Part shown: positions 1,740-29,772 of the stretch, one piece after another
Layout of the letters: each line of letters starts with the position of its first letter
How positions within the stretch are numbered: position 1 is the stretch's first letter
Source of the DNA: a virus
Lineage: Duplodnaviria; Heunggongvirae; Uroviricota; Caudoviricetes
Reading direction: 5' to 3' (one strand)
Virus record (IMG/VR): IMGVR_UViG_2687453522_000003
Coordinates: 1-40,804 of that record
Length of the DNA: 40,804 nt
Translations under genes and position numbers: made by a program
The notes under the pieces: generated by a model
Told to the model about the DNA's origin: nothing
What the model saw: only the letters and a program-made list of their open reading frames with translations
Databases searched by the model: none

Positions 1740-2954
1740 ATGTATATGTCGGTTTTTCATAACTGGCTGCTTGATATCGCAAGCGGGAATTACTTTATCT
1801 ACATCAAACGCCTTTCTGCAAACGACACAGGCGCAACAGGTGGCCATCAGGTCGGACTTTATATCCCCTCAAATATCGTTGAAAAGCTTTTTCCATCTAT
1901 CAATCATACTCGCGAACTGAACCCTTCAGTCTTCCTTACTGCGCATGTATCATCCCATGATTGCCCTGATACCCAAGCACGCGCAATTTATTACAACAAC
2001 CGTTATTTTGGTAAGACCCGAAACGAAAAAAGAATTACGCGCTGGGGGAGAGGAAGTCCATTACAGAACCCTGAAAATACAGGAGCCCTCACAATTCTTG
2101 CTTTCAGGTTAAACGAACAGAACACTGACTGTTCCGAGGTAGATATATGGGTCTGCGTCAATCCCGATGAAGAGGATCTCATCGAGTCTGCTATTGGCGA
2201 AATCATACCTGGAACCCTAATTTTCGGCCCAGCCGGACAAATTTTGGGCGGATTGTCTCTTCAGCAAACTCCAGTAAATCATAAATATGTTATTCCTGAA
2301 GACTGGAAGAAGCGTTTTCCTTCTGGAAACGAAATTATTCAATATGCTGCTGGCCATTATGCTAAAAACTCCAAGGATCCAGATGAGCAACTGATTGACC
2401 GTCGGCGTGTCGAGTATGATATTTTTCTACTCGTCGAGGAATTACATGTTCTTGATATTATTAAGAAAGGATTCGATTCTGTAGATGAGTTTATTGCATT
2501 AGCCAACTCTGTCAGTAATCGACGTAAATCAAGGGCAGGTAAATCACTTGAACTTCACCTAGAGAAGCTTTTTATCGAGCACGGACTACGGCATTTCTCC
2601 ACTCAGGCAGTTACTGAAGGTAATAAAAAACCAGATTTCCTGTTTCCTTCAGCAGAGGCATATCATAACGCTGAATTTCCTGTAGAAAACTTACGTATGC
2701 TGGCAGTAAAGACCACCTGCAAAGATCGCTGGCGTCAGATACTGAATGAAGCAGATAAAATCCATCAGGTACATTTATTTACACTGCAAGAAGGTGTTTC
2801 TTCAGCACAATACCGAGAAATGAAAGATGCGGGTGTCAGACTCGTTGTACCATCAACTTTACATAAAAAATACCCAGAAGCAGTTAGAGAAGAATTAATA
2901 ACGCTCGGAGCATTCATTACTGAGCTGATAGAACTTTACACTGAACTATCATAG
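1740..2954 (+). CDS. Type II restriction endonuclease, EcoRII-like (predicted CCWGG specificity)
   Basis: 404-aa ORF convergent with a Dcm/M.EcoRII-family methyltransferase; length and arrangement match the EcoRII system as I recall it; second ATG at 1746 has better spacing to the AAGGG ribosome-binding site. Confidence 0.7.
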   Translation: MYMSVFHNWLLDIASGNYFIYIKRLSANDTGATGGHQVGLYIPSNIVEKLFPSINHTRELNPSVFLTAHVSSHDCPDTQARAIYYNNRYFGKTRNEKRITRWGRGSPLQNPENTGALTILAFRLNEQNTDCSEVDIWVCVNPDEEDLIESAIGEIIPGTLIFGPAGQILGGLSLQQTPVNHKYVIPEDWKKRFPSGNEIIQYAAGHYAKNSKDPDEQLIDRRRVEYDIFLLVEELHVLDIIKKGFDSVDEFIALANSVSNRRKSRAGKSLELHLEKLFIEHGLRHFSTQAVTEGNKKPDFLFPSAEAYHNAEFPVENLRMLAVKTTCKDRWRQILNEADKIHQVHLFTLQEGVSSAQYREMKDAGVRLVVPSTLHKKYPEAVREELITLGAFITELIELYTELS

Positions 2955-2988
2955 GCTGACTCCCGGCTTAAAAGGCCGGGAGGTGTTC

Positions 2989-4422
2989 TCAAGGCTGCCC
3001 AGTCTTACCAGCATCAGCAGAAACAGCTTTGAGGATATAGGGTTCCAGAAGTCTGGCAACGGCTTCAAATACTGGCACCACAACGGAGTTACCGAACTGC
3101 CGATATGACTGAGTATCTGAAACCGGAATACGGAATGGTTTCCCTCCAGGTTTTTCAAACCCCATAAGGCGTGCGCACTCTCGGGGAGTCAGCCTGCGTG
3201 GTCGACGAGCCTGGTTACTCTCATTCATAAAGTCAGCCTCTCCCGTTGCCATATCCCAACCACGATCAATAAGAATTTCTGATCCGTCTTTGTGATATCT
3301 GGCAGAAAGTGTGCGTGCAATGCTTTCCTTATTCTCAGGATTGACCAACCCAAAGCCAAAACCATTCCCCTTGGCTGCATGCTTTTTGGCGTAGTTATAA
3401 AGGTACTCCCATAGTTTTGGCGTAAGTATATATTTACTGTCGACTACAGGCTCCAGCAATTCACCAAATGATGGGCGGTGTTCCGGATAAAAACGACTGA
3501 TATCACGCAAGGTAAACCCCTTGTGAATATTCAGATCTCGTCTAAATCCGACCAGAACAATGCGTTCACGATGCTGAGGCAAAAAATGCTTCCCATCGAT
3601 AATCTTTGGATCGTTTTTTCCCATTTCTGCAGCATCGGCAACTTCGTAGCCCAGCTCGTCAAGGGTCTCCATAATGACTTTGAAAGTTTTACCCTTATCA
3701 TGGCTCTTCAGATTTTTGACATTTTCCAGCACAAAAATTGCCGGTTTTTTTGCTCGTATAATACGTGCCACGTCAAAAAAAAGTGTTCCTTGTGCTTCAC
3801 ATTCAAAACCATGCGCACGACCAAGTGAGTTTTTCTTACTAACACCAGCAAGGCTAAATGGCTGGCACGGGAACCCCGCAAGAAGCACATCATGATCCGG
3901 CACATGCTCATCAATATATGCATAAGCATCCGTTTCCAATATATCGGTTTTATCACTCAGCGTGACTTCCCGAATATCGAGATTGAATTTATGCACCTGT
4001 TCATCGTTAAACCAGTTGGCCTTGTATGTACGCACAGCATCTTTATTCCATTCACTGGTAAAAACACACTGGCCTCCAATGGCCTCAAAACCTTTCCGTA
4101 TCCCTCCAATTCCAGCAAATAAGTCAATGAAGCGGAAAGCATATTCCGGATGGTTTGCAGGTGGTTCTGGTAGCATCTTACGCAGAAGAGACTCTTCTAC
4201 TGAAGTCAACGATTTTGGTAAACACTTGCCATTAATCCAGCGGTTAATGGTTTCACGGCTCCACTCATTTCTTCCGACTTTTCTCAGTAATTCAGCCACA
4301 TACTTCTGATCATAGATTTCCAGCACTTTCTCGATAAGCTTTTTATCATTTTCCTGTCGCAGCTTTTCTTCCGCCTCGGCTTCCTTCAGCAGATGCTGTG
4401 CCAACACTTCAAATTCAGACAT
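2989..4422 (-). CDS. DNA-cytosine C5 methyltransferase, Dcm/M.EcoRII family
   Basis: Motifs FAGIGG (motif I), FPCQPFS (catalytic Cys), ENVKNL, QFGNSV; near-colinear with E. coli Dcm from memory; start set at internal ATG (MSEFEV...) preceded by GGAGGA, giving 477 aa; the track ORF extends to 4464. Confidence 0.9.
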
Positions 4423-21431: not shown

Positions 21432-22614
21432 CGGAGGGTTTCGTGGTCATGTTCATCGGTGTGAGATAGACATCACCACCGGGTCGTGGATTCATATCTT
21501 CCAGGTCGCGGCAGTCATTGGGAGAGTAAATTCCCCAGTTGATCCCGGTGGCGTAGGCTTCAAAACGGGACTTCATATCCCCGCGCAGTAACGCCCCGGC
21601 GTTAAATTTGGCGTAATAAACGCCCTGCTTACTTTTTCGTACCAGTCCGGTGTTGATCCGCTGTTCGATGCGGGTCAGATACGGCACCAGTGAATAGTTG
21701 ATAAATCCCAGCCCCAGCTCTTCGATATTGTTGAAGGTGGCGCGATCGGTGTTCTGCACCATGTGCAACGGCACCCGGAACAGACGACAGATTTCTTCAA
21801 GCTGAAACTTGCGGGTTTCCAGGAACTGGCTGTCCTCGGCGTTCAGCGCCATCGACTTCCAGTCCAGCCCCATCTCAAGGATCATCGGGCGGTGAGCATT
21901 GCCAAGCCCGGTGTGACGCTCCTCAAAATCTTTCTTCAGGCGCTCATAAGCCTGATCTGACAGCGTCTGCTCTGTACGCAACACACCCGACGTCACCGCG
22001 CCATTGCTGAACAGTCTGGCCCCGTGCTCTTCGGTCGCTGCCGCCAGCGATATTGCCTCGCGGGCATAGGTGATGGGATTCAGCCCCACCAGTCCGTCCA
22101 GCGTCAGCGTGCGCACATGCCAGATATCCTCCTGGCTCAGTACATCCGTGGAGCCATCCGGGAATGTGACCTGATAGACCGGCTCCCAGCTACTGTTAAG
22201 CTTCGGTACCACACAGCCGGGATCGACGGGCAGCAGTTCAGCCACTTCGCCAAATGCTTTCACTTTGTAGGCGTAAAAGTTTCCCCGCAGGCACAGACAG
22301 GTGACCACCAGCTCCCAGAACTCCTGCGGCGTCATATAGCCATTGGGATGCGTGGAGATCAGCTTATGCAGACGTTCGCCAGCGGCTCTCTGCTTCAGAC
22401 TGCCGTTCAGGTGATACAGGTTGCAGGGCAACATCCCGACCGACTCCGCCAGCACCCTGACACAGGAAAAAACCGCCGTCAGTCGCATGGCCCGCTGGCT
22501 GCTGATCTGCTTTCCGGTATAGGTGTCGTAGGACAACCCGATAGCATCCGCCAGCTCTGCTGGCGTGGTCACCGGTGCGTTACTTTTTCGTTGAAATAAT
22601 CCCGAAAAGAACAC
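21373..22614 (-). CDS. Portal protein, HK97 family
   Basis: 413 aa, follows the terminase large subunit. Confidence 0.85.
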   Translation of the reverse strand: MFFSGLFQRKSNAPVTTPAELADAIGLSYDTYTGKQISSQRAMRLTAVFSCVRVLAESVGMLPCNLYHLNGSLKQRAAGERLHKLISTHPNGYMTPQEFWELVVTCLCLRGNFYAYKVKAFGEVAELLPVDPGCVVPKLNSSWEPVYQVTFPDGSTDVLSQEDIWHVRTLTLDGLVGLNPITYAREAISLAAATEEHGARLFSNGAVTSGVLRTEQTLSDQAYERLKKDFEERHTGLGNAHRPMILEMGLDWKSMALNAEDSQFLETRKFQLEEICRLFRVPLHMVQNTDRATFNNIEELGLGFINYSLVPYLTRIEQRINTGLVRKSKQGVYYAKFNAGALLRGDMKSRFEAYATGINWGIYSPNDCRDLEDMNPRPGGDVYLTPMNMTTKPSDGSKAGKQKDNANADETTS

Positions 22615-22796
22615 TATTTACCTCCGCCGACAGACGACTGTGTACGGTCGAGATATCGCGCCACCAGCCACGACCAGAACAGACACAACGCCCCGGCAAC
22701 AACAAACCCCGCCGGGGGATAAATCAGCCAGGCACCATACGCCAGCAAAAGCGCCCCCAGCACGCCCACCAGAGGCGCGAGAATCAGCATGATCAT
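22614..22796 (-). CDS. Small membrane protein (two predicted TM helices)
   Basis: 60-aa hydrophobic ORF filling the terminase-portal gap. Confidence 0.45.
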
Positions 22797-22807
22797 AATT
22801 ACCTCAG

Positions 22808-24541
22808 TTAAAGCGAGCGGATCCCATAGGACTCAATGTGGTCAGACAACGTGTCTTCTTTCTCGTACAGCATGGCTCTGCCAACCGCCATAATCAGCGC
22901 AACTGCACCATCGATTTTGTTTTCCGCCTGCTCTTTGACGGGCTTCACCACATCATCGTTACCCGGAATGGTTTTGCCGACCACGTTGCCGATACACCAG
23001 GTCATGATGGGATTGCCGTCATGATGAAAGCGCCCCGATTCAATCGCCGCTTCCAGTTCTTTCATCGGATCGGACATGTTGGTGTAGTTCTGAATGATGG
23101 TGATGGGGTTCAGGTCTTCATCAGCAAGGTCATGCGACAGCCCGGTCGCCCCGAAGGGGTCGATGGGTGACTCACTGACCGGGCTGATTTTGTTCGCCGC
23201 TTTGGCCTCCTCGAGGATGTAGCGATAATCCACCTCCGCACCATCGGTAACGGTCAGAACGCCCATTTCCACCCATTTCTGAAAGCGTTCGGCTGTCCGT
23301 CGATCTTCATTTTTCTCGACGCTGTACACCGTGTCATACGGTACCCAGAAGCGCGGAGCCACACTGTAGTAATGCGTTTTACCGTCAATCTCGCGGGTAT
23401 AAAGTCGCGCCATGCTGTTCATATCCAGCTTACGCGCCAGGTCAAAGGCCAGAATGCACGGCTGCCCCTCGAACTGCTCAAGAGTCAGTGATTTATCCTC
23501 GCAGCTCTGCCAGCTCACCAGGTTGAAATACGCCGAACGCGCCGACACCCAGATATTGAGGTGTTTTGTTTTAAAGACGTTTGCCAGACGGGCGTTATTT
23601 TTCGCACGCTGCTGCTGACTTAACAAAAATTCGCGATAAACCGACACGCCAATATTTGGATTGGCTTTTTCCAGCACCTGCGGGTCGGTCCAGTCGTCAC
23701 CTTCATCAACGGTATAGATGATCCCGAACAGTTCATCGTTAGGCACCGAGCCGTTGAGCATCTCGATGACTTCCCGCCGTTTGTCGTAGCACGGCCCCTC
23801 AATGTTGTACCCGGCGGTGGTGATGGCCCACATCAGTGGCTGACGTCGCGCCCCCATCCCGGTAAGCATTGTGGTATAAAGCGCATCGGTGGCATGCTCG
23901 TGATATTCATCAACCACGGCACAGTGGGGTGATGAACCATCACCTGGGTTGCCGATCAGCGGTTCAAACCGCGCGCCATCCTCCGGACGGTTCATGTTTG
24001 AGGCGTTAACCTCAATCCCGAACGCTTCTGTCAGCATGGGTGTGCGTTTACACATCAGTCGCGCCGGGCGAAAGACTTCCCACGCCTGTTTCTCTGTCGT
24101 GGCACCGGAATACACTTCCGCGCCAAACTCGTTATCACAGGCAAAACAATACAGGGCAACACCGGCAGAGATTGCTGATTTGCCGTTCTTACGGGGGATT
24201 TCGGTGTACACCTCCCGGAAGCGGCGCAACCGGGTGCCTTTATTGACCCAGCCAAACGCACAGCAGATCACAAATAGCTGCCACGACTCCAGCGTGATGG
24301 GCATCCGTTTGAATGCCCACTCCCCCTTGGTGTGCGGCAACAGCTGAATAAATTTCGCGGCCCGTTCAGCCAGGTCCTTGTCGAAGCGGTAACGAAACGA
24401 CTTACTTTTTTCCGCCATCAGGTCATCAAGATGGCGCTGGCAGGCCTGAATCACAAACTGGCAGGCAACAATCTTTCCGCGCACGACATCCCGGGCATAC
24501 TGATTGGCAGCATTTACGTTGGGGTAAGATTTCCGGCTCAT
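22808..24541 (-). CDS. Terminase large subunit
   Basis: 577 aa with a Walker A-like segment and nuclease C-terminal half. Confidence 0.9.
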
Positions 24542-25041
24542 GATTCGATAATTTTCAGAAACGGGTTAGTGGCTTTCTTCTGCCCCGCCAGGCCAATCAG
24601 ACGCTGGCGGCTGCTGGGGTCGAGTCCGAGCATTGCCCCCGTGCTGCTCATCTCGGACTCCTGTTCTTTTTTGGCGGTCAGCTCCGGATTTTTGACCCTG
24701 CCGCCCATTGCACCGGTGATAGTGTTGCCCTGTATGGCAATATTTTTCACGGCACGTCGCCAGAACTCATAGGCCACGCACCACCGCTCAAGTACCGCCA
24801 GGTCAGTCACGCACAGCAGGCCCTGACCGCAGAGTTCTTTGGTTGTCAGTTGCCACATGATCGTGGCGAGAGGGAGATCTTCTTCAGCGAACCACTCTGG
24901 TGGCTCAACACCTTTGATGGGCGTAAAAACAGGTTCATCTTTGTTCAGGGCTCGCTTGCCGGGGTTTCCGGCCAGCGCCTTGCGCGCCGTTGGCTTGGGG
25001 CGACGCCCGGAACGCCCCGCCGTTCCAGCCATATGCGGCAC
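24538..25041 (-). CDS. Terminase small subunit (P27-like)
   Basis: Basic N-terminus [18 protein letters not shown]...; overlaps the large subunit start. Confidence 0.8.
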
Positions 25042-25157: not shown

Positions 25158-25508
25158 TTACTTAATCCGTTCACGGGCCGTCTTCGCCTTATGACACGGC
25201 CAGCACAGACTCTGTAGGTTACTGTCTGCATCGGTGCCGCCATGCGCTTTAGGGATGATGTGGTCAACGGTTTTCGCCTCGCGCACCACACCGGCACGCA
25301 GGCACAACTGGCACAGGCCTTTGTCACGCTTCAGCACACGCGCGCGGATAACGTCCCACTTCGAACCATAACCGCGCTGATGACGGGACTGGCCAGACTT
25401 GTATTGCTTCCAGCCTTCGCTTTTGTGGCTTTCGCAGTAGCCTGATGGGTCAGTCGTGGTATGGCGGCAGCCGCGAACGCGGCAGGCTTTTGGGGTTCGT
25501 GGAGGCAT
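25158..25508 (-). CDS. HNH endonuclease (packaging-associated)
   Basis: Cys pairs plus DHIIP...HGG...N...CWPCH motif; adjacent to terminase as in HK97-type cos phages. Confidence 0.85.
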   Translation of the reverse strand: MPPRTPKACRVRGCRHTTTDPSGYCESHKSEGWKQYKSGQSRHQRGYGSKWDVIRARVLKRDKGLCQLCLRAGVVREAKTVDHIIPKAHGGTDADSNLQSLCWPCHKAKTARERIK

Positions 25509-25635
25509 CTATTATCCCTGTAGTTTTCGTTAAATATCTAACCATAACTGCAATCAGAAACCGCTTTAACACGGTTTGCTAAATAGACTTTTCAATCCAA
25601 TGAATAAACGGCAAGTAAATACTAATCGTTCATTT

Positions 25636-26070
25636 TCATTTGAATACAAACTGTTCTGAAAGAATATTATGACAAATATATTTCGCCTGAATACTATTAT
25701 CTCTCATTCTAATATATTCTTTGTGGGCAACAGATAAAGAACGACAACCGCTGTTTACACGTGGGTATTTTTCCAACATATGTTCGCATATCAAAAAAGC
25801 ATTATTAATAGCATTTAATTTATGGCTTAACTCTCGTAGCTCGGCCCTTTTTTCAATACGAACATTACGACTAAGAGATAAAGGTAGCTGTGATAATGCA
25901 TTTGAATAATCAGCCACTGCCATTTTCAGAGCCATTTTGGCCTTCAGAGCCTCCTGTCGCCGCCAAACATTCATTGCCCAAAAACCTAATGTAACAGTTA
26001 CAATTGAACCTAAAGCCGATACAGCTGACCACACAGTTCCCCAAGGCCAGTTAAGTAATGTATGCCACAT
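25636..26070 (-). CDS. Membrane-anchored hypothetical protein (AT-rich moron)
   Basis: N-terminal hydrophobic helix then Lys/Glu-rich soluble part; GGAGG precedes the internal ATG; low GC relative to flanks. Confidence 0.6.
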   Translation of the reverse strand: MWHTLLNWPWGTVWSAVSALGSIVTVTLGFWAMNVWRRQEALKAKMALKMAVADYSNALSQLPLSLSRNVRIEKRAELRELSHKLNAINNAFLICEHMLEKYPRVNSGCRSLSVAHKEYIRMRDNSIQAKYICHNILSEQFVFK

Positions 26071-26438
26071 CATAACCTCCACTGAATGAAAAGGTTAGTT
26101 TATCGTAAGTGAACATCACTGGCACTATCTAAAGATTAGCTGCTCTACTAGTTGTACTCTCGATAATCTAAACAAAATGATACGTAATAAACCTGTTCAT
26201 GACTAGCTCTACTAGACACATGTTTAATCATCTACAAACGATTTGTACAAACTTCCACTTTCATATTGGTCCAAAAGGTTGGACTAATAGTTAATCACGA
26301 TGCATATTTTATGTAAGCTGCTACATTACACTATAAAAACGCTGGCGTCTGAATTTAAGCCCATAAGTTTTATAAAATTATCATAATACACAGCTTTATT
26401 AGGCGCATTCGCACTGATAATGAAAAATATAACTCGAG

Positions 26439-26711
26439 CTATTTGTCTTTCGAATGCAAAATAGCGCGCCGTGATTCAATCTTTCTGATTCCAGTTTTAT
26501 CAAAATTACATTGTCCCAAGGCTGACAATAGAGCAACATTCAACTCCAGACTGGTACCATACGTCAGCGGATTGGGTATAAACGGTACAGGAGTATCAGA
26601 AGTCAGGCTGGCTGGCAGTGGTGCCACCGGAGCGCTCACGTAAACCGTTCGCGAATTTCCGCAACCGGTCAGCAGCGGCAGCAGGCACAGGACGTGAAGC
26701 ACAATCATCAT
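26439..26711 (-). CDS. Rz1-like o-spanin lipoprotein
   Basis: Alternative-frame ORF inside Rz with signal peptide and lipobox LLTGC, Pro-rich; extends past the Rz stop. Confidence 0.6.
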   Translation of the reverse strand: MMIVLHVLCLLPLLTGCGNSRTVYVSAPVAPLPASLTSDTPVPFIPNPLTYGTSLELNVALLSALGQCNFDKTGIRKIESRRAILHSKDK

Positions 26712-26988
26712 CCGCAACAGCCACTTTGATATCTTCCTGGGTTCTCTGTGACTCCAGTGCGATCTGCTGTTTTGCATGCTGGTTAACCTCTATAACTGTA
26801 TTGACGATTTGCAGTGATTGCAGGACGTTACGGGTAATGGCTGTTGCAGATTCAACATTTTGTACAGCCTCATCAGCACGTTTCTTTTCGTGCTGATATT
26901 TGCTGTAGTAGTGGTTGGCAGACCAGATGAAAGAACCGATGACAGTAAAGAAGAATGCAGCGATAACCAGCTTATAGCTCAACTTCAT
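26596..26988 (-). CDS. Rz-like i-spanin
   Basis: N-terminal TM helix then coiled-coil, directly after the endolysin. Confidence 0.75.
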   Translation of the reverse strand: MKLSYKLVIAAFFFTVIGSFIWSANHYYSKYQHEKKRADEAVQNVESATAITRNVLQSLQIVNTVIEVNQHAKQQIALESQRTQEDIKVAVADDDCASRPVPAAAADRLRKFANGLRERSGGTTASQPDF

Positions 26989-27448
26989 TTACCACCCCAC
27001 CAGCCTCTTTAAACCGGGAAATCAGGTCACCGATTTTATGTTCATACTGACCGTAACCTGCACCAGGTAACGACGCCCAGATATTGCTGCAACGATCGAT
27101 AGCCTGACGGATATCACCGCGATCAATCATCGGTAAAGCGCCACGCTCTTTAATCTGCTGCAATGCCACTGCGTCCTGGCTTTTGGGGGAGAAGTCTTTC
27201 AAACCAAGCTGTTTACGGTAAGCATCCCACCAGCGTGAAAGAAGCTGATAACGTCCGGCGGCTGTTGATTTGAGTTTGGGGTTTAACGTGACAAGTTTGC
27301 GAGGGTGATCAGAGTAATCAGTAAACAGTTCGCCGCCAACAATAACATCATAACCGTGATTACGTGTCGGTTGTCGCCCGTTATCCGTTCCTTCTGACCA
27401 AGCCACCATATCAAGGAAAGCTTTACGCTGGGGATTTAGCACCTGCAT
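26972..27448 (-). CDS. Endolysin, lambda R-like lytic transglycosylase
   Basis: Near-identical to lambda R as I recall it (FLDM.AWSEGTDNGRQ.TRNHGYDVIVGGELFTDYSDHP...). Confidence 0.9.
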   Translation of the reverse strand: MQVLNPQRKAFLDMVAWSEGTDNGRQPTRNHGYDVIVGGELFTDYSDHPRKLVTLNPKLKSTAAGRYQLLSRWWDAYRKQLGLKDFSPKSQDAVALQQIKERGALPMIDRGDIRQAIDRCSNIWASLPGAGYGQYEHKIGDLISRFKEAGGVVNEVEL

Positions 27449-27451
27449 AAA

Positions 27452-27778
27452 TTACTCCTTAGAACCACCAAACTTATTACCGATTACTCTCATTGCAGCC
27501 CCACGAATAGCATCGACACCGATCAACCCAACGCCACCACCAATGGCAACAGAAAGAGATTTAGGCCATCCGACATACTCAAGAGCGGATGCAAAAGTCA
27601 GCGTCAGAGCACCACAGAGCAAAATCTCGAGCGTTTTTCGTTTCCAGCCCCCACCACCGCCAAAATATGCAATGCGCAAGCCAGCCATAACAATCGACAT
27701 AATCACTGCGCCCAGCGGTGTGTCTCCACGCCACCAGCTCTGGACCAACTCCAACCAGGTATTTGGGTTATGAGGCAT
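27452..27778 (-). CDS. Holin, lambda S family
   Basis: Hydrophobic helices and basic C-terminus; AGLRIAYFGGGGGWKRK resembles lambda S (AMAYLRGRYNGGAFTK). Confidence 0.75.
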   Translation of the reverse strand: MPHNPNTWLELVQSWWRGDTPLGAVIMSIVMAGLRIAYFGGGGGWKRKTLEILLCGALTLTFASALEYVGWPKSLSVAIGGGVGLIGVDAIRGAAMRVIGNKFGGSKE

Positions 27779-27930: not shown

Positions 27931-27951
27931 AAACCCGCTCGACGCGGGTTT
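27931..27951 (-). terminator. Intrinsic terminator upstream of holin (candidate tR')
   Basis: Minus strand reads AAACCCGCGTCGAGCGGGTTTTGTCGTTTCT. Confidence 0.55.
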
Positions 27952-27996
27952 AAGCTGTGTGGCGAAGTAACCACTCTTAACACGATACAATACTTT

Positions 27997-28025
27997 TTGC
28001 GTACGCGTTAGCATTTGATTAGAAT
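27997..28025 (+). promoter_or_regulatory. Sigma70-like promoter for the two-gene cassette
   Basis: TTGCGT, 17-bp spacer, TAGAAT; ribosome-binding site AGGTGAAGG upstream of the ATG at 28058. Confidence 0.5.
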
Positions 28026-28057
28026 CCAATCATCAGAAAGCTAGGTGAAGGTTCAAA

Positions 28058-28879
28058 ATGAATTTTTCTTACACAAAACAGGATGGTCATACCAAACGCT
28101 GCCTTGTCAGAGCATTCAATGTTAATACAGCAACAACAGATATACTCTTCGACCAAATTTCAAATTCTGGTAAATTTATTGTTGACACTGTTTTTAAAAT
28201 AAACAATGAACAACATTTAATACTGAAAGAGTTTTCTACAAATAATAAAAGCCATTACTTACACTTTGCATTATATAATCCAAAAGAACAAGTATCGATC
28301 ACACCAAAAATAAAAACCGCAAGCGATCTTCTTGATGTTGAAAACCTTGACAATTTGCACGCTTTTTTATATGTAAAAGAAAATAAAATTGCATCTCTAA
28401 TGCAAATATCAACAAATTGGTGTGAGATTAAAATCGCTAAAATATTCGAGCAATTTGGTATAAAAATAACACCATCAGCAATTTTGCAAAAAAATGTCAT
28501 TCAACGAATTAAAGATGATAAACTTAGGGCTTTGCATCTTAATATTAGCGTTGATGCTTCTAATTTTGTGAAAACGCCCAGCTTTATAGACTCTATTTTT
28601 CAGAAAGAACCCAAACTTAAAGCTAGAGGTATTTCAGGACATTTAACTCTTGATGCAAAAGGAAATGCTGAACTAGCACAATCTATTGAAACCAACCCTA
28701 GTGGTTGGATAAATGATTTGGATTCTGATTTTTATATAGAAACAAAAAAAGGAGAGAAAATAACTAGTGACGACATTAAGTTAACAAAAGTTTATTATAC
28801 AGTCCCTTATGGTTCAAAATCTATTAATTCAAAATATGCGAAAGAAATTCTAGAGGACTTTGCTCAAAAAGAGCTATAA
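28058..28879 (+). CDS. Hypothetical soluble protein (273 aa), first gene of AT-rich cassette
   Basis: Clear ribosome-binding site; low GC; no family recognised. Confidence 0.75.
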   Translation: MNFSYTKQDGHTKRCLVRAFNVNTATTDILFDQISNSGKFIVDTVFKINNEQHLILKEFSTNNKSHYLHFALYNPKEQVSITPKIKTASDLLDVENLDNLHAFLYVKENKIASLMQISTNWCEIKIAKIFEQFGIKITPSAILQKNVIQRIKDDKLRALHLNISVDASNFVKTPSFIDSIFQKEPKLKARGISGHLTLDAKGNAELAQSIETNPSGWINDLDSDFYIETKKGEKITSDDIKLTKVYYTVPYGSKSINSKYAKEILEDFAQKEL

Positions 28880-28902
28880 TATACTAAAAAAAGGAGGCTA
28901 AC

Positions 28903-29388
28903 ATGTTAAAATCACTCAATTACTCAGGTATATTATTAACTTTGTTAAACATTTTAGCCTCAGTGTTATTTTCAATTTTCCTCACACATACTTTAACGAA
29001 CAATACTGACGCATTAAATTTGGTCGCCAATGTATTTTCTATCCTATCTGGTTTTCTTTTGTTGGTTATCACAATGTCTGGTGAAAACTCTACTCTGATG
29101 AACAACTTAAGCAAATTAGACGCTGCAAATCAAGAAATACGTTTCCTCATGCGTTTTAACAAATATTATGCTTTATTCTTGTTATATATTTTAACATTAG
29201 CTTTAATTTTTGTTTTTTATTTAATATCCAAGGATAAAGAAAACACATCTCAATACTTCATTCTGTTTAAGAAGTCAATTGGTTACATTATCTCTTTTTT
29301 AACTTGTTTTTCTTTTATACAATCAACATTCATCCCACTAAAAATAAAAGAATTATTTAAAGAGAAAAGACAACTTAATAAAAAATAG
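28903..29388 (+). CDS. Hypothetical integral membrane protein (161 aa, four predicted TM helices)
   Basis: AAGGAGG 8 bp upstream of the ATG; hydrophobic segments about 7-28, 41-59, 88-110, 125-145; Lys-rich C-terminus. Confidence 0.75.
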   Translation: MLKSLNYSGILLTLLNILASVLFSIFLTHTLTNNTDALNLVANVFSILSGFLLLVITMSGENSTLMNNLSKLDAANQEIRFLMRFNKYYALFLLYILTLALIFVFYLISKDKENTSQYFILFKKSIGYIISFLTCFSFIQSTFIPLKIKELFKEKRQLNKK

Positions 29389-29410
29389 GCCGCATAGCGG
29401 CCATTTTTTT
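29387..29410. terminator. Bidirectional intrinsic terminator between the cassette and Q
   Basis: AGGCCGC-ATA-GCGGCC flanked by A-tract and T-tract on both sides. Confidence 0.7.
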
Positions 29411-29772
29411 CATGTTAACAAAATACTTAAACAGCCATCGATGAATCCCATTGCAGTCTGTAATTCTTTTCGGATGGTCCCATCAGAACACTTCTGCTTC
29501 TTTGCGATAGTTCTTAATGAGATGCCGATAATAAAATGAGCAATAACCAACTCATACTCTTCGGGCTTATATTTACGCAATCGCGCAACACAGCTGTCAA
29601 TCATGATTCCTTCATCATCATCGCATTGTTGGCGTGTTTTCTTTCCATGAGGTAGTAAACCTTTAAACCCTGCAGCAACAGGCTGCCAGTCCACACCACT
29701 GTTATCTGCTGCAGCCCATGCTCCCCAGCGGTCCAAAACTTCATACATATCACGCATCAACTTTCTCCACAA
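29410..29772 (-). CDS. Late-gene antiterminator Q (phage 21/82-type)
   Basis: MRDMYEVLDRWGAWAA ... GFKGL ... CDDDEG pattern matches the Q family as I recall it; position after the nin region. Confidence 0.7.
   Translation of the reverse strand: MWRKLMRDMYEVLDRWGAWAAADNSGVDWQPVAAGFKGLLPHGKKTRQQCDDDEGIMIDSCVARLRKYKPEEYELVIAHFIIGISLRTIAKKQKCSDGTIRKELQTAMGFIDGCLSILLT

What the first reader, a model, noticed from the sequence alone, without database searches (positions are those of the whole stretch)
25510..26440. Second AT-rich moron: single membrane-anchored 145-aa protein with an upstream repeat-bearing leader, between the spanin genes and the HNH/terminase genes
Seen in sequence: GC drops sharply over about 0.9 kb. 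The ORF 25636..26070 has one N-terminal hydrophobic helix followed by a charged helical region. The 356-bp AT-rich upstream leader (26083..26438) carries two copies of AGCTCTACTAG about 60 bp apart (26144..26153 and 26204..26215). Inference: an independently regulated accessory gene, possibly superinfection exclusion, abortive infection or a lysis modulator, with the repeats as operator candidates.
Basis: partly seen in the sequence, partly recalled or inferred. Interest (0 to 1): 0.6.

Follow-up and report, generated by a model that had tools for sequence, protein, structure and literature searches.

The report
Prophage moron encoding membrane-anchored helical protein

Summary
The AT-rich block (25510-26438, GC 0.32-0.41 against 0.50-0.61) is a genuine insertion. 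A related E. coli prophage has only 26 nt between the Rz1/LysC stop and the HNH start, and 26 of 5,426 complete E. coli genomes carry the block. The ORF (25636-26070, minus strand, 144 aa) is a real gene (dN/dS 0.09-0.37). It belongs to phrog_6169, which has no known function and no Pfam, NCBIfam, PADLOC or PDB relative. It is predicted to be a single-pass inner-membrane protein, N-terminus out, with a cytoplasmic four-helix bundle (AF2 pLDDT 84).

In 36 of 37 loci from Enterobacterales prophages, relatives sit directly after unrelated lysis cassettes and before unrelated packaging genes. They are always on the late strand and always AT-rich. That fits a mobile moron, not a partner of one lysis protein.

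It is expected by chance (P about 0.14) and is not conserved in the closest variants.

The conserved cis element is the 35 nt before the start codon (26071-26105): a -10-like TAnAAT followed by an anti-SD that pairs with the SD. It is better conserved than the protein. I infer lysogen-specific translation by fold-back inhibition. Function is unknown; phage exclusion at the inner membrane is my best guess.

The parts
25510..26438 (-). AT-rich inserted block (moron) between the Rz1/LysC stop and the HNH start
   Evidence: GC is 0.32-0.41 against 0.50-0.61 in the flanks. The empty-site prophage L002 has 26 nt here. The full block is present in 26 of 5,426 E. coli genomes.
25636..26070 (-). CDS of 144 aa (PGAP: 145 aa from 26073, WP_225896238.1), a member of phrog_6169
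   Evidence: ORF and translation. phrog_6169 E = 3e-57. dN/dS 0.09-0.37. No Pfam, NCBIfam or PADLOC hit.
25963..26049 (-). Codes for the N-terminal transmembrane helix (about residues 9-37), predicted N-out/C-in
   Evidence: AF2 predicts a continuous helix 11-61. K/R count is 5.35 in the 20 aa after the TM against 0.75 in the N flank, in 53 of 55 members. A conserved stripe with 3.5-residue period (S19, T23, T26, A30, A33, W37) runs through the TM.
25654..25962 (-). Codes for the cytoplasmic four-helix bundle (residues about 38-140)
26071..26105 (-). 35-nt block conserved across the family, directly upstream of the start codon
   Evidence: Identity is 0.86-0.89 between lineages whose proteins are 35-44% identical and whose 4-fold sites are saturated. 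Neighbouring non-coding DNA is about 0.4-0.5 identical. Alignment A5.
26073..26097 (-). SD-masking hairpin: anti-SD arm 26090-26097 pairs with the SD arm 26073-26080
   Evidence: Minimum free energy -7.0 kcal/mol in the window. The same hairpin is predicted in all 18 unique leaders, -5.5 to -15.3 kcal/mol. It is the consensus structure in RNAalifold.
26076..26080 (-). Shine-Dalgarno GGAGG, 5 nt before ATG 26070
   Evidence: Read directly from the sequence.
26097..26102 (-). -10-like hexamer TAAACT (family consensus TAnAAT)
   Evidence: T44 is invariant and A45, A47 and T49 are at least 90% conserved in A5. The hexamer sits at -32 +/- 1 in all 15 unique leaders. Promoter activity is inferred, not shown.
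26120..26125 (-). -35-like GTGCCA, 17 nt upstream of the -10-like hexamer
   Evidence: 4 of 6 matches in the window and 1-4 of 6 in relatives. Weak and inferred.
25554..25582 (-). Terminator-like hairpin 54 nt after the stop codon, with a poor U tract
   Evidence: -11 kcal/mol, z = -2.4, 6 of 200 shuffles fold as well. Relatives L015, L016, L029 and L031 carry canonical hairpin plus T-run terminators at the same place.
26106..26438 (-). Distal AT-rich leader, specific to the E. coli lineage, function unknown
   Evidence: No similarity in other lineages, in the phage collection or in Rfam. About 83% identical with indels in L027 and L028, while the CDS is 97% identical.
26142..26151 (+).
   Evidence: Not conserved in L027 and L028.
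26206..26215 (+).
   Evidence: Mutated in L024 and L025 and diverged in L027 and L028.

Best explanation
The block is a phage moron: a self-contained accessory cassette inserted between the last lysis gene (Rz1/LysC) and the HNH/terminase genes of an SfV/HK97-type lambdoid prophage.

Its one gene encodes a bitopic inner-membrane protein. A short N-terminus faces the periplasm. One transmembrane helix carries a conserved stripe of small and polar residues. A four-helix bundle lies in the cytoplasm. The protein belongs to an uncharacterised family (phrog_6169) found in temperate phages of Enterobacterales.

Because it lies co-oriented inside the Q-dependent late operon, it must be transcribed late (inference from lambdoid late-operon organisation). 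The 35 nt before the start codon are the best-conserved part of the cassette. They hold a -10-like TAnAAT followed at once by an anti-SD that pairs with the strong SD.

My reading is inferred and untested. A weak promoter of the cassette's own would start transcription inside the anti-SD arm, so prophage transcripts have a free SD and are translated. Read-through late transcripts contain the whole hairpin and are translated poorly. This is the logic of IS10 'fold-back inhibition'.

The protein would then act in the lysogen at the inner membrane. The most likely role is to exclude or abort superinfecting phages through its transmembrane face and cytoplasmic bundle.

My confidence by step:
- moron and real gene: about 0.85
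- topology and fold: about 0.7
- leader mechanism: about 0.35
- exclusion or defence function: about 0.3
For: Insertion:
- The empty site has 26 nt between LysC and HNH.
- 26 of 5,426 E. coli genomes carry the block, while 978 genomes match at least part of the flanks.
- The GC drop is present here and in every relative (gene 0.36-0.44 against flanks 0.45-0.57).

Real gene:
- dN/dS is 0.09-0.37.
- 67 cluster representatives were found in 1.84 billion proteins.

Autonomy from neighbours:
- The same gene follows at least five unrelated holin/endolysin/spanin sets. It precedes HNH + P27-type TerS, Nu1-like TerS + GpA, or ParB/TAGT/Terminase_2.
- In the temperate phage CobraSix it sits between TerL and portal instead.

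Transcription-unit features:
- A -10-like hexamer is fixed at -32 +/- 1 in all 15 unique leaders.
- Canonical terminators follow the gene in L015, L016, L029 and L031, and there is a hairpin in the window.

Leader:
- The SD-masking hairpin is predicted in all 18 unique leaders.
- The block is conserved far above the neutral rate.
- A transcription start 7 nt after the hexamer would fall at the 3' end of the anti-SD arm in all 15.

Topology and fold.

Precedents:
[quoted passage not shown] HK97 gp15 is a small inner-membrane exclusion protein (PMC3594210).
- Tab is a defence moron lying between the terminase genes (PMC10884400).
Against: - No transcript, start-site or protein data exist for this gene.
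- The -35 is poor (1-4 of 6). The window's -10 is only 4 of 6 (TAAACT), so the promoter scan did not report it.
- The window's hairpin alone is unremarkable (z = -0.78). 21% of other gene starts in these loci also have a fully paired SD in the minimum-energy fold.
- Only 2 of 7 stem pairs show compensatory changes.
- The window's terminator-like hairpin lacks a good U tract.
- No match to any of 5,027 PADLOC defence models for any of 55 family members.
- 36 of 37 loci place the gene right after the lysis cassette. That would also fit a lysis-related late function.
Confidence: 0.5

Rival explanations
1. It is a late-cycle accessory of the lysis module. The protein is made from the Q-dependent late transcript. 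The SD hairpin merely keeps the level of a potentially toxic membrane protein low. The protein tunes lysis timing or membrane events at the end of infection, in the manner of an antiholin or other lysis regulator.
For: - It is co-oriented with, and directly downstream of, the spanin genes in 36 of 37 loci.
- Gaps to the spanin gene can be as short as 78-82 nt.
- RNA hairpins at the start of lysis genes have a precedent in the lambda S sdi structure (my own knowledge).
- The transmembrane helix has a conserved interaction face.
Against: - Proteins 64-99% identical are paired with unrelated holins (Phage_holin_3_1, holin_2_1, holin_8 + 3_7), endolysins (GH104/24, GH19, GH108, T4-type) and spanins. 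A specific partner among them is therefore unlikely.
- Prophages matching the same LysC and HNH flanks (related lysis and packaging genes) lack it.
- In CobraSix it is separated from the lysis genes and lies between TerL and portal.
- Several relatives have terminators directly after the gene.
- The cytoplasmic location of the soluble domain excludes an RI-type periplasmic antiholin.
Confidence: 0.22
2. It is a lysogenic-conversion factor unrelated to phage exclusion. The membrane protein would change host physiology, for example stress tolerance, a transporter or a signalling protein, by binding a host inner-membrane protein.
For: - It has the same moron features as the best explanation.
- The conserved transmembrane face and the four-helix bundle are typical protein-binding modules.
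- No defence-model hit was found.
Against: - Nothing specific supports it.
- The family is confined to phage late operons. No chromosomal or plasmid context was seen in 37 loci.
Confidence: 0.15
3. One reading: the two GCTCTACTAG copies are operators of a regulator that controls an independent promoter in the 356-nt leader.
For: - Two exact 10-mers lie 64 nt apart.
- They bracket a promoter-like site (TAGTCA-17-TATCAT, 26205-26177). Its -10 is kept in L028.
Against: - The repeat is at chance level (P about 0.14).
- The distal copy is mutated in L024 and L025. Both copies change independently in L027, L028 and L004.
- This part of the leader does not exist in other lineages of the family.
- Promoter-like sites in the region are not enriched over shuffles (5 found against 3.5 expected).
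Confidence: 0.05
4. It is decaying junk: a remnant gene with no present function that hitch-hikes in the prophage.
For: - The E. coli copy has weaker matches in the conserved leader than other lineages. It has TAAACT in place of TAAAAT, G-U pairs in the hairpin and a poor terminator.
Against: - The ORF is intact in all 26 genomes.
- dN/dS is 0.13-0.37 even within the E. coli lineage. The CDS is 97-99% identical where the leader is about 83%.
Confidence: 0.03

Closest known systems
HK97 gp15 moron (superinfection exclusion; Cumby et al. 2012, reviewed in PMC3594210)
   Same: Both are small genes added inside a late operon of a lambdoid phage and co-oriented with it. Both differ from their neighbours in composition and are followed by a terminator-type hairpin. 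Both products have one N-terminal transmembrane helix followed by a charged helix.
   Different: There is no sequence relationship (hhalign probability 0.2%). gp15 is 62 aa and has no folded domain, whereas this protein is 144 aa with a four-helix bundle. The slots differ: tail operon there, lysis-packaging junction here. An exclusion phenotype has not been tested here.
Tab, the defence moron of Pseudomonas phage JBD26 (PMC10884400)
   Same: Both are small accessory genes inserted among the packaging genes of the late operon of a temperate phage. Tab is expressed from the prophage through its own promoter.
   Different: Tab has 83 residues and shows no similarity. Its paper mentions no transmembrane segment. 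The host and phage type differ, and its mechanism (tail-assembly block) is not implied here.
IS10/Tn10 fold-back inhibition (Davis, Simons and Kleckner 1985; my own knowledge)
   Same: In both, an inverted repeat pairs the ribosome-binding site with an upstream segment in transcripts that enter from outside. The element's own promoter is placed so that its transcripts would lack the upstream arm (geometry).
   Different: In IS10 the start site is mapped. Here it is only inferred from a conserved -10-like hexamer. The element here is a phage cassette, not a transposase gene.
Four-helix-bundle sensor domains (NarX/NarQ, Tar/Tsr ligand-binding domains)
   Different: Those domains are periplasmic and lie between two transmembrane helices. 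This one is predicted to be cytoplasmic with a single transmembrane helix. Sequence identity is 3-13%. De novo designed bundles score equally well, so the resemblance is generic.
Lambda bor and other cargo at the Rz-to-terminase junction of lambdoid phages (my own knowledge)
   Same: It occupies the same junction downstream of the spanin genes, which is known to hold accessory genes.
   Different: bor is an outer-membrane lipoprotein on the opposite strand. This gene is on the late strand and encodes an inner-membrane protein. No homology was detected in any library.

Membership tests
Phage moron (Juhala/Hendrix definition, PMC3594210) | Extra DNA present in some phages and absent from close relatives at the same position | tested here: met
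   L002 has 26 nt between the LysC stop and the HNH start. The block is in 26 of 5,426 E. coli genomes.
Phage moron (Juhala/Hendrix definition, PMC3594210) | Base composition differs from the surrounding genes | tested here: met
   GC is 0.32-0.41 against 0.50-0.61. The same contrast holds in all relatives.
Phage moron (Juhala/Hendrix definition, PMC3594210) | Own promoter | tested here: inconclusive
   A conserved -10-like TAnAAT lies at -32 in all 15 unique leaders, but the -35 is weak. The window's site scores 8 of 12 and the promoter scan did not report it. No transcript data.
Phage moron (Juhala/Hendrix definition, PMC3594210) | Own terminator | tested here: inconclusive
   The window has a -11 kcal/mol hairpin with a poor U tract. 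Canonical terminators are present in relatives L015, L016, L029 and L031.
Phage moron (Juhala/Hendrix definition, PMC3594210) | Expressed from the repressed prophage | not testable with these tools
   Needs RNA or protein data from a lysogen.
phrog_6169 (PHROGs v4, unknown function) | Significant full-length match to the family HMM | tested here: met
   E = 3e-57 over residues 7-148. All 55 family members match.
HK97 gp15-type superinfection-exclusion protein | Sequence or profile similarity to gp15 | tested here: not met
   hhalign probability 0.2%.
HK97 gp15-type superinfection-exclusion protein | Blocks DNA entry of superinfecting phage | not testable with these tools
   Needs plating and DNA-entry assays.
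Holin or antiholin | Match to a holin family, or fixed association with one holin type | tested here: not met
   No Pfam hit. The gene is found with Phage_holin_3_1, holin_2_1 and holin_8 + 3_7 cassettes alike.
i-spanin (Rz-like) | N-in/C-out type II membrane protein with a periplasmic coiled coil, paired with an o-spanin lipoprotein | tested here: not met
   The charge distribution predicts the opposite topology. The fold is a compact bundle. A separate Rz (DUF2570) and Rz1/LysC pair is already present.
Known anti-phage defence systems (PADLOC-DB v2.0.0) | Match to any defence-protein model | tested here: not met
   There are no hits for the window protein, and only isolated chance-level hits among 55 members. 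Newer catalogues were not available.
IS10-type fold-back inhibition | An upstream segment pairs with the ribosome-binding site | tested here: met
   The hairpin is predicted in all 18 unique leaders and in the consensus fold. The block is under purifying selection.
IS10-type fold-back inhibition | The native transcription start lies inside or beyond the upstream arm | not testable with these tools
   The geometry fits, because the seventh nucleotide after the hexamer falls at the 3' end of the arm in 15 of 15 leaders. The start site itself is unmapped.

The most novel reading that the evidence does not exclude
phrog_6169 would be a new family of prophage-expressed inner-membrane proteins that exclude or abort superinfecting phages. 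The family would carry its own built-in insulation. A 35-nt leader, better conserved than the protein, would allow translation only from the cassette's own promoter and silence it in the late read-through transcript. That would be a fold-back-inhibition switch acting as a general design feature of morons embedded in late operons.
Probability: 0.2. Interest if true: 0.65.

Novelty: new variant of a known kind. Interest (0 to 1): 0.4.

Why it matters
Morons are a main route by which prophages change their hosts, but most moron genes have no assigned function. This work defines a small, clean family with four useful properties:
- a fixed genomic slot
- a confident structural model
- a predicted topology
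- a cis element under stronger constraint than the protein

If the leader model holds, it answers a practical question. A gene embedded in a strongly transcribed late operon could be kept lysogen-specific without a repressor, which would help in recognising other morons. If the protein excludes phages, it adds a new inner-membrane defence family. If neither holds, this is an ordinary hypothetical prophage gene.

The module is 99.8% identical in the culture-collection strain NCTC11129 (H22), so the experiments are feasible.

Tried and rejected
- **Zinc site.** C96, C110, H117 and C134 are conserved in the close family, but the cysteines are not conserved in the wider family. Rejected.
- **Terminal inverted repeats.** A 15-nt inverted repeat flanks the block (25546-25560 and 26482-26496). 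One arm lies inside the LysC coding sequence, and the pair has 3 mismatches in variant L004. I treat it as chance.
- **Structured RNA or small RNA in the leader.** Rfam gave no match at E <= 1.
- **Related DNA in isolated phages.** blastn found none. tblastn found only CobraSix.
- **Remote homology.** No hit came from:
  - Pfam, NCBIfam or PADLOC
  - PDB sequences (best E 0.97)
  - Foldseek against BFVD and PDB
- **Collection scans.** The genome-contig scan returned a single locus.
- **Literature.** 'phrog_6169' gave no paper and 'CobraSix' gave nothing relevant. No open-access source for IS10 fold-back inhibition was found, so I cite it from memory.
- **A second upstream hairpin or palindrome.** CAGGCATTCACTGAGTGCCTG occurs in several lineages, but its left half is absent in the window lineage. 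I did not use it.
Full report
**Setting.** The window holds a lambdoid prophage with its late genes on the minus strand. In order they are:
- a Q-type antiterminator (about 29410-29772)
- a lambda-type holin (27452-27778)
- an endolysin (26972-27448)
- Rz (DUF2570, 26596-26988) and Rz1/LysC (26439-26777)
- the AT-rich block
- an HNH endonuclease (25158-25508)
- a P27-family small terminase (24538-25041) and the large terminase (22808-24541)

The flanks match SfV, SfIV and related phages, but the block itself is absent from 50,697 phage records.

**Checking the observation.** GC is 0.32-0.41 across about 25400-26600 and 0.50-0.61 on either side. The only sizeable ORF is 25636-26082 on the minus strand.
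- The start is most likely the ATG at 26070. GGAGG (26076-26080) lies 5 nt upstream of it. The ATG at 26073 that PGAP uses is ATT in close variants.
- The repeat is the 10-mer GCTCTACTAG at 26142-26151 and 26206-26215.
- A 10-nt exact repeat is found in 14% of randomised leaders.
- The distal copy is changed in L024 and L025. Both copies change independently in L004, L027 and L028.
- I see no evidence that the repeats are functional.

**It is an insertion.** In E. coli PigCaeca_1 (L002) the LysC stop and the HNH start are 26 nt apart.
- Of 5,426 complete E. coli genomes, 978 match at least part of the flanks and 26 carry the whole block.
- A variant about 91% identical (L004, L027, L028) sits behind a different holin/endolysin set.
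- In strain 1506 an IS5-family element truncates the block.

**The gene is real and belongs to a small uncharacterised family.**
- dN/dS is 0.09-0.37 both within and between lineages.
- Between the window and L027/L028 the CDS is 97% identical, while the leader is about 83% identical with indels.
- The protein matches phrog_6169 (unknown function, E = 3e-57). It matches nothing in Pfam, NCBIfam, PADLOC or the PDB sequences.
- A word-indexed search of 5.8 billion proteins found 22 relatives.
- A full HMMER profile search of 1.84 billion representatives found 67.
- A second profile search found 47. All are 'hypothetical', none has a Pfam domain, and they come from Escherichia, Salmonella, Enterobacter, Hafnia, Klebsiella, Serratia, Pantoea and Citrobacter.
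- All 55 aligned members fall in phrog_6169, and none matches a defence model.
- One genome per species across 185,579 species yielded a single locus, so the family is rare cargo.

**Protein anatomy.** AlphaFold2 with the 17-sequence alignment gives mean pLDDT 83.8 and pTM 0.68.
- One long helix spans residues 11-61, covering the membrane span and a stalk. It packs with three further helices into a four-helix bundle.
- Foldseek finds nothing significant in PDB or BFVD.
- The 20 residues after the hydrophobic segment carry 5.35 Lys/Arg on average. The whole N-terminal flank carries 0.75. This holds in 53 of 55 members.
- By the positive-inside rule the N-terminus is periplasmic and the bundle is cytoplasmic.
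- Conservation runs as a stripe with 3.5-residue spacing from S19 through T23, T26, A30, A33, W37, Q40/E41, K44 and K50 to P64.
- The membrane helix therefore has a conserved packing face of small and polar residues. I infer that it is more than an anchor.
- The cysteines conserved in close relatives are not conserved across the family, so a metal site is unlikely.

**Genomic context of relatives.** I collected 37 loci and labelled neighbours by similarity to Pfam-annotated proteins.
- In 36 loci the gene lies on the late strand directly after the lysis cassette.
- That cassette may be lambda-S holin + GH104/24 + Rz/Rz1, holin_2_1 + T4-type lysozyme + DUF2514, holin_8/holin_3_7 + GH19, or holin + GH108.
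- Downstream come HNH + P27 TerS, Nu1-like TerS + GpA, ParB/TAGT/Terminase_2, or further small genes.
- In the temperate lambdoid phage CobraSix it lies between TerL and portal.
- In every locus the gene is AT-richer than its flanks.
- Proteins 64-99% identical combine with unrelated lysis proteins. Prophages with related LysC and HNH flanks lack the gene. The protein is therefore unlikely to be a specific partner of any lysis protein.
- The pattern fits a mobile cassette with a preferred slot.

**The conserved cis element.** Aligning the upstream regions showed that the block just before the start codon is shared by all lineages. The consensus is TAAAAT-AACCTCCTTATTTCAAGGAGGTTTTC-ATG.
- AACCTCCTT is complementary to the SD AAGGAGGTT.
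- A hairpin that masks the SD is the minimum-energy fold in all 18 unique leaders (-5.5 to -15.3 kcal/mol; -7.0 in the window). It is also the RNAalifold consensus.
- On its own this is weak evidence. 21% of other gene starts in the same loci also have a fully paired SD. The window hairpin is not better than shuffles. Only 2 of 7 pairs show double changes.
- The strong evidence is the substitution rate. Between lineages whose proteins are 35-44% identical and whose 4-fold sites are saturated (identity 0.26-0.37), the 35 nt are 0.86-0.89 identical. The next 45 nt upstream and the 3' flank are at 0.38-0.53, which is background for this alignment method.
- The block is thus better conserved than the protein.
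- The hexamer TAnAAT (TAAACT in the window, 26097-26102) keeps the key -10 positions T, A and final T. It sits at -32 +/- 1 in all 15 unique leaders.
- A start 7 nt downstream would fall at the 3' end of the anti-SD arm.
- The -35 is weak: GTGCCA in the window (4 of 6) and 1-4 of 6 elsewhere.

**Ends of the unit.** Canonical hairpin plus T-run terminators follow the gene within about 15-45 nt in L015, L016, L029 and L031. They are probable in L005 and L030.
- The window has a -11 kcal/mol hairpin (25554-25582, z = -2.4) with a poor U tract.
- The distal 300 nt of the window's leader and its 127-nt trailer occur only in the E. coli lineage. They have no Rfam match.

**Mechanism proposed.**
- Shown: an inserted, compositionally distinct cassette; a selected protein-coding gene; a conserved 35-nt leader able to mask the SD.
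- Inferred from lambdoid late-operon organisation: the gene is transcribed with the late genes whatever else happens.
- Inferred from geometry: a weak promoter of its own starts inside the anti-SD arm. Prophage transcripts would then be translatable and late read-through transcripts would not. This resembles the way IS10 protects its transposase gene from outside transcription (my own knowledge).
- Guess: the protein acts in the lysogen at the inner membrane against superinfecting phages. This follows moron-encoded HK97 gp15 (PMC3594210) and Tab (PMC10884400). The protein is not related to gp15.

**Rivals.** They are, in order:
- a late lysis-associated role
- a host-physiology role
- decay

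The evidence for and against each is given in the Rival explanations section.

**Verdict.** The finding is a genuine moron with an uncharacterised membrane protein. That is an ordinary class of object. It carries one unexpected, testable feature, the highly conserved SD-masking leader.

Noticed in passing
window 27950-29400 (ORFs 28058-28879 and 28903-29388, + strand): A second AT-rich block (GC 0.28-0.33) lies between the Q antiterminator and the holin, on the opposite strand. It has two ORFs. The 273-aa product matches phrog_23561 (unknown function, E = 1e-114). The 161-aa product has only faint matches to SLATT_4 (E 0.078) and a PADLOC '4TM effector' (E 0.092). It may be a two-gene accessory or defence cassette.
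   Followed up: partly
L004 1737-2192; L027 313-768; L028 4604-5059: The 89-91% variant of the gene carries a 21-nt tandem duplication inside the transmembrane-coding part. It adds 7 residues (SALGSVV/SALGSIL) and lengthens the hydrophobic helix from about 29 to 36 residues, with the ORF still intact.
   Followed up: partly
L015, L029, L031, L032, about -75 to -55 from the start codon (alignment A5, columns about 17-40): A near-perfect 21-nt palindrome, CAGGCATTCA-C-TGAGTGCCTG, lies just upstream of the conserved leader in several lineages. L035 has one compensatory A-T to G-C change. Its right half overlaps the -35-like GTGCC. The left half is absent in the window lineage. It could be an operator or an RNA hairpin.
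   Followed up: partly
window 25546-25560 and 26482-26496: A 15-nt inverted repeat with 1 mismatch brackets the whole block, with one arm inside the LysC coding sequence. It is degraded to 3 mismatches in L004, so I judged it to be chance.
   Followed up: yes
window 26439-26508 against L002 1636-1700: The last 20 or so codons of Rz1/LysC differ completely between the window and the empty-site prophage. The replaced segment may therefore extend into the 3' end of lysC, giving an insertion boundary near 26508 and not 26438.
   Followed up: partly
L003 (E. coli strain 1506), locus 1873-3059: An IS5-family element (ISKpn26) sits in the leader and has removed the ORF and everything downstream of it. 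Only the distal leader and the lysis genes remain.
   Followed up: no
window 26270-26287 (GTCCAACCTTTTGGAC on the minus strand): A small hairpin lies in the distal leader. Its stem changes from GTCCAA/TTGGAC to GCCCAA/TTGGGC in L028, a compensatory pair of changes. There is no U tract and its meaning is unknown.
   Followed up: no
L001 215-397 (corresponds to window about 22614-22808): A 60-aa gene annotated ymfR lies between the large terminase and the portal gene. This is the same slot that the phrog_6169 gene occupies in phage CobraSix.
   Followed up: no
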